This document shows, piece after piece, positions 35,468 through 44,400 of a stretch of DNA of 64,000 bases (the stretch's first letter is position 1; the number at the start of each line of letters is the position of its first letter). This DNA comes from Spirochaetia bacterium (GTDB lineage Bacteria; Spirochaetota; Spirochaetia; SZUA-6; Bin103). The position numbers are program-made. Location: assembly GCA_965203055.1 (NCBI GenBank), contig OZ241863.1:4416001-4480000 (forward strand). Direction: 5' to 3'.

Positions 35468-38400
35468 TTGGCGCTGCTGGCGCCGCGCCTGGCGATTCTG
35501 GACGAAACCGACTCCGGCCTGGACATCGACTCGCTGAAGGCGGTGGCGGACGGTATCGAGAAGCTGCGCCATGCGGAAAACGCGTTCGTCCTGATTACCC
35601 ACTACCAGCGCATGCTCAACTACGTGACCCCGGACCGCGTGCACGTGATGTACGACGGCCGCATCATCCGCAGCGGCGCCCGCGAGCTGGCGCTGGAGAT
35701 CGAGGAGCGCGGCTACGACTGGCTGGTCACCGGCCCGGCGGGCAGCGATGGCTGACGCCAGCGCCGTAGCCGAGCGCCCGCCGGCTGCGCGCTAACCGCA
35801 AGCGCGAAGTTCTTCAAGCCACGGAAGCACCGCGGTGCGGTCGAAAACGTCCCAATGCGTCTGGTTGCCGTAGTCATTCAGGCACTTGCCGCACGAGCTG
35901 GCACAACCGGCTCGACAGTCGAGGACGCGAATCGCCTCGTCAAGCAGCCGCTCGGTGGAGATCCCCTGCTGTTCCGTGGAGCCTAGCCGTCGCACGAAAC
36001 CGGCGCCGCCCGCTACGGTGTCGTAGAGGACCACGACCGGGTGCCCCCGGTCTATCTGAAACGTTGCCGCAAGATCGCGAGAATCGGTTTGCAACAGGCG
36101 CAGCCCGGCCAGCCTAAACGCTTCCGCCAGGGTACGTGCGAATTCAGCCGCCGGCGTCGCCGGCATCGGTTTTCGGAACGTGAAGGCACGTACGTCGGTC
36201 TCGAATACGTGGCCAAGGTCAACCGGATTCCTCAAGGTGACCTGCGGGCAGTTTTCTCCGGTTCTTGGATTCTTGTGGCGCGACTTGATGGGCTTGCCGT
36301 AGCGGGAATCGAGAGGTGCGGACTCGGCGTGCTCGCACGTCGGACAGCGAAGATAACCTCCCCCGCGCATGCCTCGATTGACGACGAAGAGCCTCCCATG
36401 CGGAGCGCCGCCGCCATCCCTTGGGAACGCAGCGGCATAGAACGTGTGCAACAGCGGCACATCGGTCTCATGGTAGGCCCCGGCAGGCGGCCGGGTCAAC
36501 AACCGCGCTTCGTCGGCTGGCCGCTGTCGAACCCGTGTCGATCCGGGATCTCTGCCGGCACGTTCGGCATACGCAGTCAGAAACCCTTTCGGCTCGATGA
36601 ACGATCCCTGATGGTGGCCAGTCCACTGGTGATGGCACTGCGGGCAGGTCGGAGGAAGCAGGTTGCGGTCGTCGGCGAGTGCAACGTGTCTGCAGCTTTC
36701 GCAGACGCGATACCAGCGCTTCGGCATGAACGATTGTGGATAGCGGATGATGCCGGCGCTGGTCCAGATGCGACCGCCTGCGACCACTTCGGCTCCCGGC
36801 GCGTATTCGGAAATAGCCAGCAGCGCAGCGCGGTCGAGTTGCAGTCCGGTATCCGGGGCGCCGTACGGACTGGCTGGTCGGCCTTTGCTCGTCGAAATCT
36901 CGAGGCGGCAGGTGTGCACCGGAAAGCTGTAGGTGGGAATGACCGCTTGCCGGGAGAGCATGTCCACGAGAAACTGCGCCAACAAGTTCTTCTGTTGGCG
37001 CTGCATGGCGGCGGCCACGTTATACTGCCGATCATCGCCCGCCTGCTTCAGGCGATCTTGCAGCGTCTGCCAGCGGTTCGCAATTTCATTCACGAAGTCG
37101 GACCAGCGTCCCGCGGCACACCGATAGAGATCACATCCGCCCAACCCGGTTGACTGGATGGATCGGGGGATGGTCATTACCAACGATTCAGCCTCGGCAT
37201 ACGCAGCTTGCCCAACGTCAGACGTGGACCATGACCCAAAGGCAGATATGTGACTGCGCACCTCGTCCGCACCGAGATCATGGCCAAGGATGTCGTGCAG
37301 GCGCGGCGCTGCCGATCGGTCGGTGCCCGCCAAACACTCCCGGAAAAACCCCGCAAGTACGATCGACATTTGATGCCGACGGAAGAAGTCGGCGTTGTCC
37401 AGGGCAATGTACGGTACTGCAACGCGCCCGGACAAGTACTCGTCGAACGATTGATACTGTTCCTGATCGTAGTTGCCATTGCGGGCTATCGTCAAAGCGA
37501 CCGGAGCCGCCTGGGCGCGCCGTCCGGCGCGTCCCGCGCGTTGCTGATAGTTGCCGATCCCGGGCGGGACGTTACGGCACAAAGTCGCTTCGAGATCACC
37601 CAGATCGACGCCCAGCTCCATCGTGGTGGTGCAGCTCAGCAGGTTGACGTCTCCGTTGCGGAACTCCTCCTCAAGTTCTTCCCGTAATTGAACGCCAATC
37701 GCCGCGGTGTGTTCCCGCGCGATTGCGTTCATCGAACGTCCGGCGTCACGGCCGTCCAGATAGAGGCGCGCATAGTGGTTGTGCTGCTCCAGAGCGTCGC
37801 GTGCGTCGTTCGCGACTTCGTGCAGGGAACCCTCACACTTCCAGGAGGGGCAGATTGAGCGGACTGAGCGAAACGTCCGCGCGCCGCACACGCGGCATTC
37901 GTACAGTGGCCGCCGGCGGCCATCCTCGATGTGGAGCGTAACCAGATCCAGCGCATAGCCTGGACCGTGGCGCACGAGGAGCCTGGTTTTCTTCGCATGG
38001 TCGAAGAATGCCTTGAGTACGGCGAACGTAAGATCTCGGTTCATCCCAAGTCGCTTCAGTACCCACGAGAAGCGATTGTCATGCTGCTCAGCGGGAAGGA
38101 TTGGTCGCGGAAATGATTTTCGTCGCTGCGGTCTGTCGAGACTGACGCAGCGATTTTCTTGATTCTGACGGCCCCAGATCTTGTCGTCAGTCAGATCCAG
38201 GGTCCCGTCTGAATCGTGAATGGCTCGATCACGTCGTATCAGATCCAGTGCGAGAGCGGCGAAGTCAGTTGCCAAGGCGGTGTCCAGCTCCGGAGCGAGC
38301 TTTGCGACGGCTGCCGCAACGGCGGCCAGCGCGCGGCCGGCGTAACTCACGTGGGCAAGGCCAAGGCTCTCCAGGGACACTCGCGCCATCCCGGCAGTGC

Positions 38401-41400: not shown

Positions 41401-44400
41401 ATCGAAGGGGTTCGGGATGATGTGACCCTTGAAGTCGATATCGGTCGGCTGTTCGGGACAGCGTACGATGATATGCGAAGCAGATTTATCTTGAGGGACG
41501 TCCAGTTCCGTACCAAGCAGCAAGGGATATTCCTTCCCCGTACTAGTGCGGACGAATATGGAGATTCCTGGAGGCGGGAATGTGAACGAGACAACTCTCC
41601 GGTCAACTGAGAAGGCAAGTATAGCGCGCAGATATCGCGCATCCTTTTGCAAGCTAAGCCGTCCGTCAGCCGTCCTTGTCAAGTGCTTAAGATGTGTCTT
41701 TGCAAGGTTTTCCGGAATCGATTCCGCATCGAACACAGCTTGGTCACGCAAGCCTCTGAGACTTGGCCAGTACCAGAATCCGTACCGATTCAGCGCCCGA
41801 TTCTGACTCTTGACGTGTAACGAAATCCTTACCTTACCGAACGGTCCGCGTGTGGGGAGGTTCAGTGGTGCAACAAGGTCTCCGCTGGGCCGTATGTGTA
41901 CGGGAATACGTGATATGAAGTGCATGCCGTATTCCAATTTGATCTCGAGGTTGTCGCTCAGGCCACTCACGTCTCCCCTCAGAACAACGGTACGGGGTTC
42001 TGCCAGAAGCAATCCGTCGGCGTGGCGTGCGACTCTGCAGCCGTCGACTTCCAGGTGAAGGCGGGGATCAACCTGAGCATTTAAGCAGGCGTCTCCTTGA
42101 GAAATGCACAAATCCTTCGAGCTCTCAGGATACAAGACGTACGCGTTCTGGCCAAGTTGATATGCGTCCTCTCCGTTGACCCGAAATAGCCGCATCGACA
42201 CCAGAGAGATCGAACCGGCGGGAATGCGCGGTACGCTGCGTGCTTGATGATTCAGCACTCCTTTGAGCCTGCCGGAGTCGCCATCGAACAGGAGAATGTC
42301 GGCTTGTGGATCTTTGAACAGCGGCAGGGACTGCCAGTTATTTCGCTCAGTGCTAGCCTGCCAGCGAACGCAACGCGGCCAGGGAGGTGACAAGACTGTG
42401 CCCTCTTGTGGATTCAAGGGTCTCGGCGGCTGGCTGGAATTGATGTCGACTTCAAGCGATTGCCCACGAGGCGCGGCTTCAATGCACAGCTCGCCGTCGC
42501 GGAACGTCAAGCAGGGTGGACGAGGCGCCGGACCATGTCCCCCGCTCAGTTCTTTGATTTCGTGGAGGACCCGGCGTTCGAAGTCGGTTGTGGGTTGGTC
42601 CCATTCTCGGAGTCGAACGTAGACGGTAGCGTGATAGCCGGTCGAATCCTCGCCAAGTATTTTGCGCAGCCTTGTCAAGTGTGTCGGAACGTGCTCCATC
42701 GCCTGCTCTTCCCATGACTTGACTTCAGCGGTGTCCTCGCAATCCGGCAGACCGGATTTTCGTTCGACACGCAGGAACGCGTCCACAAGCGGCCTGATCT
42801 GGCTGTGGGGAACACCAGCCTGAAACAGATAGTCGCCAATCAAGTCCTGCGTGCCGGGATACTTCGGCGGGAGTATGAGGCCATGTTCATTGCAGGCGCG
42901 TCGAAATCGATCATTGAAAGAGTCGCGGCGGTTCGTCGAGATCTCCATGCCGAGTCGGTGGGAGATCGGACCATAGCTCGCGTGGTCGGTATCCGGGCCG
43001 TATTGCTCCGCAAGAGTGGTTGCGACGGCCCAGACTGCGAGGAGGGGGTATTGTACGGTCACGTAATCAAGGAAGTTATCTGTTACTCCCCCGATTTCGG
43101 CTACTAGCGCGTGCTCGACGTCGCTGCGCATCGGCTCCGGTATGTCGTGGTGACCGATGAAGGGCGATCCATGTTCCCGTGCCAAGTGCCTTCGCAGTCT
43201 CTGTTCGGCTCCGGCGAGGGCCGCCATCCGCATCTCGTAGCTGGTTGGCATCGGTGGTATTGACTGTCCCGACCATGAGCCACTGGCGTCGTGGCCAAGT
43301 GACATTACCATAGTATTGATCGCTTTCCGGCGCAACCGGCGGTCAGCCGCCGCAGGCGGCAGATGTCCCGGTGTGCGCCGCACTGGTTGTTCTTGACCGC
43401 ACGGCGGGCGCGCGCGTATGTTCTAAATAAGACTTGGCAAGTCCTATTTCGTACGGTACACGGTGGGTCAGGCAGAGGCATGGAGATGACAGTCCGCAGC
43501 AGGGGTTTACGCACCGATAAGGCGCGCCGCGTCGCCGCAGGCGGCGCCGGTAACGGAGTGGGGCGCTGATGGCGGCAAGGAGCGCCGCGTCCGAACAAGG
43601 CGCGGCCGAACGCCCGGCGGTTCCCCATAACGGGAACGTTGCGCCCTACGTGGAGCAGTTCCGGCGGCTGTACCGGGAGCAGGGCGCCGGGCTGGCGGTG
43701 GACGCCGCCGACTCGGCGACACGGACCGAGGCGCTGGAGGAGCTGAGCGCCTTCGGCTTCCCGCTACGCCGCGACGAGGAGTGGGCGCACACGCCGGTGC
43801 GGACGGTGGTAGAAACGGCTTACCGGCTGGGCGGGGGGGCAGCCGCGGCGAAAGTGTCTGCCGGCGGCGTCGCCGTGGCACTGGTCGAGGAGGACCCGAT
43901 CGCGTTGCTCACGGTGAACGGCGTGGTAAGCAACGGCCGGCTGGGGAACGGCCTGCCCGCGGCCGGCGTAAGTATCGGCAGTGAAAGGAGCCTGGCTGCA
44001 ACGGCTAGTATCGGTACGGGCGGGGGCATTGTCCGATCCGACGGCGCCGCAACGGTAAACACTTTCACCCGGCCCACCGGCGATGCGTTCACCAAGTTGG
44101 CGCGCGTATTCGGCAACCGGGTAGACCTGGGGTTGGATGCCGATGCGAGCGCAGCGCCGGTTCATCTGGTGCACCTCACCGAAGCCGGGGTGTTGAGCGC
44201 GCCGCGGGTGCGGCTGCAGGTCGCGGCCGGCGCGCGGGTGACGCTGGTGGAGACGTTTGCCGCGGCGAACGGCGAGCCGGAGGCGGGCGCGCCCTCCCTG
44301 ACCTGCGGTGATACGGAGATTTACCTCGGCGCCGGGGCGGAGCTGACCTACGTGCGGGTGCAGGCCGCGGCGGAAGGCGCCTTCGATCTTGGCAGCACCA

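What a model noticed while it worked through the whole genome (the two positions that open the first line are those of the whole stretch)
35792..43311. Druantia-type DruE helicase paired with a partner protein that ends in a complete ribosomal protein uS5 module
A 7.5 kb, lower-GC (58-62% vs 69%) two-gene island is inserted in the suf operon between sufC (g03679) and sufD (g03682). It encodes a 1633 aa DruE helicase (g03680) and, directly upstream, an 863 aa protein (g03681). Residues ~30-680 of g03681 belong to an unnamed family of ~1100 aa proteins that lie directly upstream of DruE homologues in three other phyla/classes. That is the place of DruH in type III Druantia, yet the family is not recognisably DruH by sequence. 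In g03681 the family's C-terminal ~400 residues are replaced by a full second copy of ribosomal protein uS5 (both Pfam domains; 51% identical to the cell's own uS5, g00649). I propose (i) a DruE partner family that defines a furt [...]
Evidence so far: g03681: Pfam Ribosomal_S5 (res. 719-780, 51 bits) + Ribosomal_S5_C (792-853, 59 bits). Its best Swiss-Prot hits are uS5 of Treponema (45.6% over 136 aa). BLASTP to the genome's own uS5 g00649: 51% over 140 aa, E 1e-46, motif VVVGDRxGRVGYGFG kept. The canonical rpsE g00649 stays in the ribosomal operon. g03680: PADLOC DruE1 E 6e-167, DruE3 1.6e-163. g03681 and 8 long relatives have no PADLOC hit (E<=1 / 0.01) and no Pfam hit on the N part. The genome's canonical Druantia III pair g02152/g02153 (C1:2560943-2567780) is found by the same library (DruH3 E 3e-79, DruE3 E 0). 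hhalign of the 28-seq family profile against that DruH gives probability 0.1%. Word-index search: 10 clusters, all with both [...]
(Added by a program. Inside this text positions count along the whole contig: contig position 4,416,001 is position 1 of the stretch shown here. "Call 12" and the like, gene names such as g00115 and contig names such as C1 are that model's own, and its searches are not shown. The text may have been shortened before it was handed on; [...] marks where a part breaks off. The agent that wrote the report below was given it as the finding of a first reader that could run no searches.)

Follow-up and report, generated by a model that had tools for sequence, protein, structure and literature searches.

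The report
Phage-defence sensor fused to ribosomal uS5
A two-gene, Druantia-like anti-phage helicase system sits inside an iron-sulfur operon of a sponge-associated bacterium, and its presumed sensor protein has swapped its usual tail for a fast-evolving copy of the host's own ribosomal protein uS5, which nobody has described in a bacterial immune protein.

Summary
Window 35792-40693 (-) encodes a 1633-aa DruE-type helicase. Window 40720-43311 (-) encodes an 863-aa partner that ends in both uS5 domains. The pair forms a low-GC island between sufC and sufD.

The fusion is real. Ten protein clusters share it, and independent metagenome contigs bridge every junction.

The partner's first ~675 residues belong to a large family of about 1100-aa proteins (452 clusters at 50% identity). 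In 9 of 9 fetched loci a family member lies directly upstream of a DruE homologue.

No sequence method links this family to canonical DruH. Yet its predicted build matches the published DruH structure: a helical head, about six Ig/Fn3-like domains and a helical tail. Its nearest language-model neighbours are DruH clusters. I read it as the DruH equivalent of a Druantia III-like branch, not a new type.

In one sub-clade the last Ig domain and the tail are replaced by uS5. This module:
- groups with rpsE of the host's own bacterial family;
- has evolved about five times faster than the rest of the protein;
- has lost half its positive charge but keeps the fold.

Its role is untested. It could be a nucleic-acid-binding head, a bait for a phage factor, or a ribosome tether. 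I class this as a new variant of a known kind, with interest 0.66.

The parts
35792..40693 (-). DruE-type YprA/MrfA-family SF2 helicase, 1633 aa. It ends just after the MZB zinc domain and has no recognisable nuclease domain.
   Evidence: It is 50-57% identical over its full length to the helicase downstream of every fetched family member.
40720..43311 (-). Partner (sensor-like) protein, 863 aa. Alternative starts are GTG 43383 or the ATG near 43251, where relatives begin with MPT.
42544..43239 (-). Partner N-terminal all-helical domain (residues 25-256).
   Evidence: AF2 model, block pLDDT mostly 80-95. The domain is conserved across the family.
41287..42513 (-). Partner beta-rich array (residues 267-675), about five Ig/Fn3-like domains.
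   Evidence: The matching part of long member P0020 hits cytokine-receptor, filamin and titin Ig/Fn3 arrays.
41170..41280 (-). Disordered, Arg-rich linker (residues 678-714).
   Evidence: pLDDT 23-27. An in-frame 27-nt deletion at 41255 occurs in an independent contig. Linker length varies among relatives.
40738..41163 (-). Complete uS5 module (residues 717-858): the dsRBD-like S5 N domain plus the S5 C domain.
   Evidence: Pfam. TIGR01021 scores 123.8 bits, below its cut-off of 164. The Foldseek top 50 are all bacterial or plastid uS5 chains, TMt 0.69-0.93. Trees.
35747..35791 (+). Left junction. About 45 nt match the 5' end of relatives' sufD and are left stranded behind sufC.
43312..43568 (.). 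Right-end intergenic region between the partner start and sufD. It holds a 34-nt direct repeat (43348-43381 and 43533-43566, 74% identical). It also holds a weak sigma-70-like site at 43393-43422 (+) facing sufD.
   Evidence: The promoter count is not above shuffles (3 found, expected 1.8).
34691..35755 (+). sufC (flank). The true start is probably just after the sufB stop at 34967.
   Evidence: ABC_tran hit. It is 88-92% identical in DNA to same-genus genomes.
43569..45017 (+). sufD (flank).
   Evidence: SUFBD_core hit. It is 73-76% identical to same-genus SufD.

Best explanation
This is a horizontally acquired, self-contained two-gene anti-phage module of the Druantia III-like kind.

The downstream gene is a DruE-type helicase. 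By analogy with E. coli DruE, it loads on exposed single-stranded DNA of the invader and unwinds it 3'-to-5'. The upstream gene is the structural and positional equivalent of DruH, the sensor or DNA-binding partner.

In the wider family this partner has a helical head, about six Ig-like domains and a helical tail. In the sub-clade present here, the sixth Ig domain and the tail were lost. A disordered linker now carries a copy of the host lineage's own ribosomal protein uS5. That copy kept its fold but shed much of its rRNA-binding character.

My most likely reading is that the uS5 module is the new ligand-binding head of the sensor. It would most probably bind nucleic acid (structured RNA, an RNA-DNA hybrid or a ss/ds junction) in place of the Ig5/C-terminal-domain ssDNA pocket of DruH, and so decide when the helicase is released or recruited.

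Shown: the gene content, the conserved pairing, the architecture, the domain swap, the host origin of the module and its fast evolution. Inferred: the defence function, the DruH equivalence, and nucleic-acid binding by the module.
For: Pairing and modularity:
- 9 of 9 fetched loci (8 distinct) have a DruE homologue immediately downstream on the same strand.
- Their flanks are unrelated to one another and often defence-linked: type III RM, a Schlafen/AlbA protein, an MBL/LmuA-like protein and an EVE-domain protein.

Helicase:
- The motifs are intact.

Architecture:
- The long-form model scores pLDDT 92.3 and pTM 0.91. It is helical at 13-241, beta at 255-778 and helical at 781-1097.
- The beta part matches Ig/Fn3 arrays.
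- Hu et al. describe DruH as an N-terminal globular domain, six Ig-like subdomains and a C-terminal domain, with the ssDNA/ATP pocket at the Ig5-CTD interface (section 9 read).
- ESM Atlas neighbours of P0020 are YjiT_N/YjiT_2nd clusters (score 0.93, 210 of 256 features shared, 22 of 30 hits). Canonical DruH homologues carry those same Pfam families.

Domain swap:
- The alignment and the window model show the shared part ending near residue 675, then a linker, then uS5.
- The N-part tree puts the 11 uS5 forms and 2 short forms in one clade (SH-aLRT 100) nested among long forms.
- The short sister forms end in an Arg-rich tail (KLVRRRHGRGRRRR-type). That fits a need for a nucleic-acid-binding C-terminus.

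Module origin and constraint:
- All 14 fused modules form one group (SH-aLRT 92). They fall with canonical uS5 of the host family, genera g1 and g2 (SH-aLRT 97).
- The module still has a net charge of +5 to +9.
- 25 positions are identical in all five divergent representatives.
- Among close relatives the module is as conserved as the N part: 90-97% against 91-93%.
Against: - No experiment exists on this system or any member of its family.
- No sequence method links the family to DruH.
- A direct superposition on the solved DruH (9tud) could not be run, because the fold libraries end on 2026-04-08.
- The Atlas result comes with a low recognition value (1545). For the window's own N part the score is only 0.86.
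- The module kept only 41-52 of 83 positions that are at least 95% invariant in canonical uS5. It kept 3-8 of 13 invariant Lys/Arg. Its net charge is about half the canonical +16/+17. This weakens a simple RNA-binding reading.
- At depth the module diverged much faster than the N part: 38-51% against 61-74% identity, and a tree path of about 3.0 against about 0.6 changes per site. That pattern fits an arms-race surface at least as well.
- This DruE has no nuclease domain, so how the invader would be cleared is open.
- Gene context is known for the window's own lineage only among uS5 forms.
Confidence: 0.42

Rival explanations
1. Integrated bait (decoy). The tethered uS5 copy mimics the host's ribosomal protein. 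A phage factor that binds or modifies uS5 or the 30S mRNA-entry site would hit the bait instead, and this would switch on the DruE helicase. The logic is that of integrated decoys in plant NLR receptors.
For: - The module derives from rpsE of the host's own family (SH-aLRT 97).
- It hangs on a disordered linker.
- It has lost much rRNA-binding charge while keeping the fold.
- It evolves about five times faster than the rest of the protein at depth, as expected for a surface in an arms race.
- It stays conserved among close relatives.
Against: - I know of no phage factor that targets uS5, and none turned up. The searches returned listings only, and nothing relevant.
- At 35-53% identity to canonical uS5, the bait may no longer resemble its model.
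- Known Druantia III sensing is DNA-centred.
- No selection test (dN/dS) could be run, because no DNA of the relatives was available.
Confidence: 0.25
2. Ribosome tether or translation effector. The module docks on 30S subunits or assembly intermediates. This would place the sensor at translating ribosomes, or block translation once the system fires. A translation block would supply the effector step that this nuclease-less DruE lacks.
For: - The module is a whole two-domain uS5 with a native-like fold (TMt up to 0.93, rmsd 1.4-3 A).
- This DruE has no nuclease domain.
Against: - The module lost 31-42 of 83 canonical invariant positions and half of the positive charge.
- The cell keeps its canonical rpsE.
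- Druantia III-A acts directly, without growth arrest (abstracts and passages).
Confidence: 0.1
3. Neutral passenger. An accidental capture of rpsE persists without function, and the truncated partner works (or fails) without it.
For: - The module diverges fast at depth.
- Sister forms P0012 and P0013 do without it.
Against: - The reading frame is intact in 10 clusters at 90% identity and in four 50% representatives (P0007, P0033, P0062, P0149).
- Both Pfam domains are still recognised in all of them.
- Indels in the linker are in frame.
- 25 fold-defining positions are invariant.
- Among close relatives the module is as conserved as the N part.
Confidence: 0.1
4. Artefact. The fusion or the island is an assembly chimera, or two genes were read through.
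For: - The genome is a metagenome-type single-contig assembly.
- Its canonical DruE3 is split by a frameshift.
Against: - The ORF is continuous.
- Ten clusters from ENA, Logan and JGI sources show the same architecture.
- Contigs from runs of three other studies bridge the left junction, the N-part/linker/uS5 junction and the right junction.
Confidence: 0.02

Closest known systems
Type III-A Druantia, DruH-DruE of E. coli (Hu et al. 2026, Himpich et al. 2026 preprints; PDB 9tud = DruH)
   Same: - Both are two-gene operons with the partner directly upstream of a large SF2 helicase carrying an MZB/DUF1998 domain.
- In the long relatives the partner is about 1100 aa, with a globular head, about six Ig/Fn3-like domains and a C-terminal domain.
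   Different: - The partner shows no detectable sequence similarity to DruH (YjiT_N/YjiT_2nd).
- The helicase is shorter (1633 aa) and lacks the two PLD nuclease domains.
- In the window protein the sixth Ig domain and the C-terminal domain are replaced by uS5.
'Druantia Type III-like' / III-B branch of YprA-family helicases (Bell et al. 2025 preprint; mentioned in Himpich et al.)
   Same: - The DruE is compact and mostly lacks a nuclease.
- Some relatives carry a C-terminal extension. Here 5 of 8 distinct loci have about 340 extra residues.
- There is only one accompanying gene.
   Different: - Membership was not tested on a tree, because I had no reference sequences.
- The passages I read do not describe the partner of that branch.
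- They mention no ribosomal-protein fusion ('ribosom' occurs 0 times).
Canonical bacterial ribosomal protein uS5 (rpsE)
   Same: - Both Pfam domains are present.
- The predicted fold superposes on solved uS5 (TMt 0.69-0.93).
- Lineage-specific motifs are shared with the host family's uS5 (VPRR, AVMEAAG, AVFAGF-type).
   Different: - It is fused behind 715 residues and lies outside the ribosomal operon.
- It scores below the TIGR01021 cut-off.
- It keeps 41-52 of 83 invariant positions.
- Its net charge is +5 to +9, against +16/+17.
- Its tree branches are about ten times longer.
Integrated decoy domains of plant NLR immune receptors (concept; recalled, with review listing)
   Same: A copy of a host protein is built into an immune sensor on a flexible tether, and it evolves fast.
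   Different: The receptor class and the kingdom differ, and no pathogen factor is known here. This is an analogy only.

Membership tests
Druantia type III (DruH-DruE) | Large SF2 helicase with a DEAD/DEAH core and a C-terminal MZB (DUF1998) zinc domain that scores as DruE | tested here: met
   Pfam DEAD, Helicase_C and MZB. PADLOC DruE1 at 6e-167 and DruE3 at 1.6e-163, though only partial stretches match best. Motifs I, II, III and VI are present.
Druantia type III (DruH-DruE) | Only one accompanying gene, directly upstream and co-directional | tested here: met
   There is a 26-nt gap in the window. The same order holds in 9 of 9 related loci with unrelated flanks.
Druantia type III (DruH-DruE) | The partner is DruH by sequence (PADLOC DruH3; Pfam YjiT_N + YjiT_2nd; STY4851/ECs_5259 family) | tested here: not met
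   No PADLOC hit for the window protein at E<=1, and none for 41 of 41 family members at E<=0.001. No precomputed PF27201 or PF27205 on 26 of 26 proteins, whereas nearly all of the 120 listed DruH homologues carry them. hhalign gave 0.2% and 0.15%. Cross HMM searches scored at most 2.5 bits. The same PADLOC library finds the genome's own DruH at 2e-79.
Druantia type III (DruH-DruE) | The partner has the DruH fold: N-terminal globular domain, six Ig-like subdomains and a C-terminal domain | tested here: inconclusive
   The long-form model has the same order of parts and about six beta domains (compared with the description). Atlas neighbours are DruH clusters. No superposition on 9tud was possible. 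The window protein itself lacks the last Ig domain and the C-terminal domain.
Druantia type III-A | Two C-terminal PLD-like nuclease domains in DruE | tested here: not met
   The protein ends 28 residues after the MZB match, and no further Pfam domain is found.
Druantia (any type) | Protects against phage | not testable with these tools
   No experiment was possible. No RNA run was listed either.
Ribosomal protein uS5 (rpsE) | Both S5 domains above Pfam gathering scores, and the uS5 fold | tested here: met
   52 bits against a cut-off of 27.1, and 60.3 bits against 21.5. The Foldseek top 50 are all uS5 chains.
Ribosomal protein uS5 (rpsE) | Equivalog-level score (TIGR01021 cut-off 164.05) | tested here: not met
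   123.8 bits.
Ribosomal protein uS5 (rpsE) | Free-standing protein of about 170-200 aa, encoded in the ribosomal protein operon, with the invariant basic rRNA-binding residues kept | tested here: not met
   It is fused and lies in the suf-operon island. The canonical copy is at C1:749150-749689. It keeps 52 of 83 invariant positions and 8 of 13 invariant K/R. Net charge is +5 against +17.

The most novel reading that the evidence does not exclude
A bacterial immune sensor carries an integrated bait made from the host's own ribosomal protein uS5. A phage factor that attacks uS5 or the 30S mRNA-entry site would be caught by the tethered copy, and this would license a nuclease-less Druantia-like helicase. 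That would be a prokaryotic counterpart of plant NLR integrated decoys. It would also point to an unknown phage strategy of targeting uS5.
Probability: 0.22. Interest if true: 0.9.

Novelty: new variant of a known kind. Interest (0 to 1): 0.66.

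Why it matters
DruH was solved only in 2026, and its role as sensor, scaffold or ssDNA binder is still debated. This finding adds three things.

First, a large partner family (at least 452 clusters at 50% identity) fills the same operon slot with the same build but no sequence likeness. Current DruH models (PADLOC, Pfam YjiT) therefore miss a sizeable share of Druantia-like systems.

Second, it offers a natural domain-swap series within one clade: a helical tail, an Arg-rich stub, or a whole uS5. The series marks the C-terminal end as the exchangeable 'reading head' of the sensor and makes that idea testable.

Third, I found no earlier report of a complete, host-derived ribosomal protein built into a defence protein (searches; passages read). 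If the module binds a phage factor, it would reveal a new infection cue. If it binds nucleic acid, it shows how a ribosomal protein can be recruited as a sensor domain.

Tried and rejected
**Sequence links to DruH**
- The A1 profile against PDB sequences gave 0 hits at E<=10.
- hhalign of A4 against the genome's own DruH, and against a 40-sequence DruH alignment, gave 0.2% and 0.15%.
- Reciprocal hmmsearch with filters off scored at most 2.5 bits.

**Fold searches**
- Foldseek 'pdb' with the window model returned only uS5 chains.

**Docking of the module**
- Complex prediction of the N part (residues 20-680) against the uS5 module (712-860) gave no verdict, with scores 0.00 and 0.00.

**Context and expression**
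- Viral contigs gave 44 pattern matches, none confirmed.
- No RNA holder was listed, so nothing can be said on expression.
- Rfam found 0 families in 33000-46000.

**Signs of mobility**
- I found no terminal repeats, no integrase and no tRNA at the island ends.
- The left and right junction sequences are no more alike than shuffles: 140 of 500 shuffles reach the observed score.
- The duplicated sufC/sufD junction therefore rests only on each side's match to relatives.
- Joints that skip the island have short sides (22-47 nt) in a conserved ABC ATPase gene. I do not take them as island-free alleles.

**Promoters and other fusions**
- The promoter and terminator scan was not above shuffles.
- A search for other large proteins carrying this uS5 module found only the same family plus one L18-S5 read-through (P0174).
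- The local Pfam copy lacks the YjiT models: the genome's own DruH gets 0 hits. Pfam silence on the N part there means nothing.

Full report
**1. What is there**

Two co-directional ORFs lie on the minus strand. One is 35792-40693 (1633 aa). The other is 40720-43311 (863 aa from ATG, or 887 aa from the GTG at 43383). A 26-nt gap separates them.

The downstream protein is a DruE-type helicase:
- It hits Pfam DEAD, Helicase_C and the MrfA zinc-binding (MZB) domain.
- It hits PADLOC DruE1 (6e-167) and DruE3 (1.6e-163).
- Motifs I (GSGKT), II (DEIH), III (SAT) and VI (QRAGRAGR) are intact.
- It ends right after MZB, so it has no nuclease domain.

The upstream protein has no PADLOC hit at E<=1. It ends in both uS5 Pfam domains, at residues 719-780 and 792-853. 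NCBIfam rpsE_bact scores 123.8 bits, below its cut-off of 164. The module is 51% identical (71/140, E 8e-42) to the canonical uS5, which sits in the ribosomal operon elsewhere on the contig.

**2. The island**

The + strand reads sufB, sufC, then the island, then sufD and sufS.
- GC is 0.53-0.66 inside the island and 0.70-0.74 to the right.
- GC3 is 0.62-0.69 for the island genes, the uS5 module included (0.68). It is 0.81-0.95 for the suf genes and 0.91 for canonical rpsE.
- In 10 of 10 same-genus genomes sufD is present. In the closest ones sufC and sufD abut or overlap.
- Their DNA homology with the window stops at 35791, one base before the DruE stop codon. It resumes at about 43560-43631.
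- About 45 nt of the ancestral sufD 5' end remain behind sufC.
- I found no integrase, tRNA or terminal repeats.
- In 92 genomes of the host's order, only this genome has the full partner.

**3. The fusion is real**

Ten clusters at 90% identity (P0002-P0011, from ENA, Logan and JGI) have the same N part followed by both uS5 domains.

Logan contigs from runs of three other studies cover the junctions:
- One 9.9-kb contig of X5 spans 35432-45000 at about 97.7% identity. It differs by an in-frame 27-nt deletion in the linker.
- Contigs of X3 and X9 bridge the left junction and the N-part/linker/uS5 junction, and an X3 contig also reaches across the right end of the island into sufD.

Holders with at least 0.52 of the sampled words and an uncoded label are labelled sponge metagenome.

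**4. The partner family**

The word-index search found 26 proteins: 10 uS5 forms, 3 short forms (about 690 aa, or N-terminally cut) and 13 long forms of 969-1105 aa.

A profile of long and short forms, run against 1.84 billion representatives, found 452 proteins at E<=0.001, 342 at 1e-10 and 200 at 1e-30.

I fetched nine loci: six from species genomes and three from metagenomes, two of which look identical. They come from Rhodothermales, Gammaproteobacteria, Longimicrobiales, Bryobacterales and two Opitutales. All nine have a DruE homologue (50-57% identical, full length) directly downstream. Their flanks differ, from PKS genes to a type III RM system, a Schlafen/AlbA protein, an MBL and an EVE protein. 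One helicase is cut by an IS481 element. So the pair is a self-contained mobile module.

**5. Is the family DruH?**

By sequence it is not:
- PADLOC DruH hit 0 of 41 members. The same library finds the genome's own DruH at 2e-79.
- The precomputed Pfam families YjiT_N and YjiT_2nd mark nearly all of 120 listed DruH homologues. They mark none of the 26 family proteins.
- hhalign gave 0.2% and 0.15%.
- Unfiltered cross HMM searches scored at most 2.5 bits.

By build it matches:
- The AF2 model of long member P0020 (78-sequence alignment, pLDDT 92.3, pTM 0.91) has a helical head (13-241), a beta region (255-778) and a helical tail (781-1097).
- By strand grouping and aligned ranges, the beta region splits into about six domains.
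- The beta region matches cytokine-receptor, filamin and titin Ig/Fn3 arrays. These are the same classes that Himpich et al. report for DruH domains (passage).
- Hu et al. describe DruH as an N-terminal globular domain, six Ig-like subdomains and a C-terminal domain. They place the ssDNA/ATP pocket between Ig5 and the C-terminal domain (section 9).
- ESM Atlas puts P0020 next to STY4851/YjiT clusters (score 0.93, 210 of 256 features). The window's own N part scores only 0.86, which is a lead and not proof.

The solved DruH (9tud, found by sequence) is not in the fold libraries, so no superposition was possible.

Bell et al. (passages) describe a separate 'Druantia Type III-like' helicase branch that mostly lacks a nuclease and sometimes has PLD or Vsr. 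Here 5 of 8 distinct relatives have a C-terminal extension of about 340 aa, and the window helicase has none. That fits the description, but I did not test it on a tree.

**6. The swap**

The window model (26-sequence alignment, pLDDT 79.2, pTM 0.67) has four parts:
- helices at 25-256;
- a beta array at 267-675;
- a disordered linker at 678-714;
- a uS5 module at 717-858.

The Foldseek top 50 hits are all uS5 chains (TMt 0.69-0.93). Compared with the long forms, the sixth beta domain and the helical tail are gone.

On the N-part tree (41 rows), the 11 uS5 forms and short forms P0012 and P0013 make one clade (SH-aLRT 100) nested in long forms. The uS5 forms alone form one side of a branch with support of only 63. 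The short forms end in an Arg-rich tail.

**7. Origin and evolution of the module**

The first tree had 76 rows: 14 fused modules, 29 canonical uS5 from the order, 29 from the phylum and 4 from other phyla. Rows with an HSP under 125 aa or with stops were dropped, leaving 62 of 64 canonical candidates. In that tree the fused modules form one group (SH-aLRT 92) beside the canonical uS5 of the host genus (99).

I then added 13 of 14 further fetched rows, including 8 from the sister genus. The fused modules now fall with the host family, genera g1 and g2 (97). Fused modules plus g1 alone is unsupported (59). Long branches call for caution.

Other measures of divergence:
- Fused modules are 38-51% identical to each other and 35-53% to canonical uS5. 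Canonical uS5 within the order is 68-99% identical.
- The N parts of the same proteins are 61-74% identical.
- The tree path from the window to P0008 is about 3.0 changes per site for the module and about 0.6 for the N part.
- Among close relatives the module is as conserved as the N part: 90-97% against 91-93%.
- The module keeps 41-52 of 83 near-invariant canonical positions and 3-8 of 13 invariant Lys/Arg. Its net charge is +5 to +9 against +16/+17. Twenty-five positions are fixed in all five divergent representatives.

**8. Reading**

Shown:
- a mobile DruE-plus-partner pair;
- a partner family with a DruH-like build but no DruH-like sequence;
- replacement of its C-terminal reading end by a host-derived uS5 that is kept as a folded domain yet is no longer an orthodox ribosomal protein.

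Inferred:
- the module defends against phage, as Druantia III does;
- the partner plays DruH's part;
- the uS5 module is the new ligand-binding head.

I favour nucleic-acid binding (0.42). DruH's pocket lies at the end that was replaced, the sister forms carry an Arg-rich stub there, and uS5 is built from a dsRBD-like domain and an S5-domain-2 fold. The last point is recalled knowledge of the family.

The bait reading (0.25) explains the host origin, the tether, the lost rRNA charge and the fast divergence at least as well, but it lacks any known phage factor. The remaining rivals are a ribosome tether or translation effector (0.10), a neutral passenger (0.10) and an artefact (0.02).

**9. Novelty**

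Full-text searches returned nothing on a ribosomal protein fused to a defence protein. The terms were 'integrated decoy' + anti-phage, 'Ribosomal_S5' + defense system + phage, and 'ribosomal protein' + DruH (listings only). The three Druantia/YprA papers I opened contain no 'ribosom' term. Their supplements were not read and could list such architectures.

I class the finding as a new variant of a known kind.

Noticed in passing
L050 (G000:C1:2558000-2571000), ORFs 6257-9781 and 9178-11172: The genome's canonical Druantia III helicase (DruE3) is split into two overlapping ORFs. They match model positions 6-1113 and 1113-1673. This is a frameshift or an assembly error. The DruH next to it (2878-6273) is intact.
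   Followed up: partly
L051 (G000:C1:2018000-2032000), 6106-12075 and 5297-6115: A third DruE-like helicase (1989 aa) ends in a Peptidase_S24 domain (residues 1854-1969). It follows a 272-aa gene with HATPase/Sacsin and PADLOC TmtA N-terminal matches. This may be another YprA-type system.
   Followed up: partly
L047:3984-6359: One ORF joins a DruA domain (PF14236, 1e-29) to Tn5-type transposase domains. It lies upstream of a partner-DruE pair.
   Followed up: no
L014:17494-18444 (-): An IS481-family transposase gene interrupts the DruE homologue of the Bryobacterales locus.
   Followed up: no
G018:C2:943785-944264, G019:C2:2018521-2019000, G015:C1:403436-403912 and four more genomes of genus g2: Seven genomes of the sister genus carry a piece of about 160 aa that is 36-50% identical to partner residues 417-579. 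It lies inside small ORFs. No DruE lies within 16 kb in the three regions fetched. It may be a remnant or a reused Ig-like domain pair.
   Followed up: partly
L012, L015, L016, L047, L049: last ~340 residues of the DruE homologues: The longer DruE relatives share a C-terminal extension with a conserved GGHFHDRR motif and no Pfam hit. The window's DruE lacks it.
   Followed up: no
window 43348-43381 and 43533-43566: A 34-nt direct repeat (74% identical) lies in the intergenic region between the partner start and sufD. The second copy ends at the sufD start.
   Followed up: no
window 41255 (linker before the uS5 module): An independent metagenome contig (run X5) has an in-frame 27-nt deletion here. 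The linker length is therefore free to vary.
   Followed up: no
P0174 (884 aa): This protein has Ribosomal_L18p plus both S5 domains in one ORF. It is probably a read-through of neighbouring operon genes and is unrelated to the defence family.
   Followed up: no
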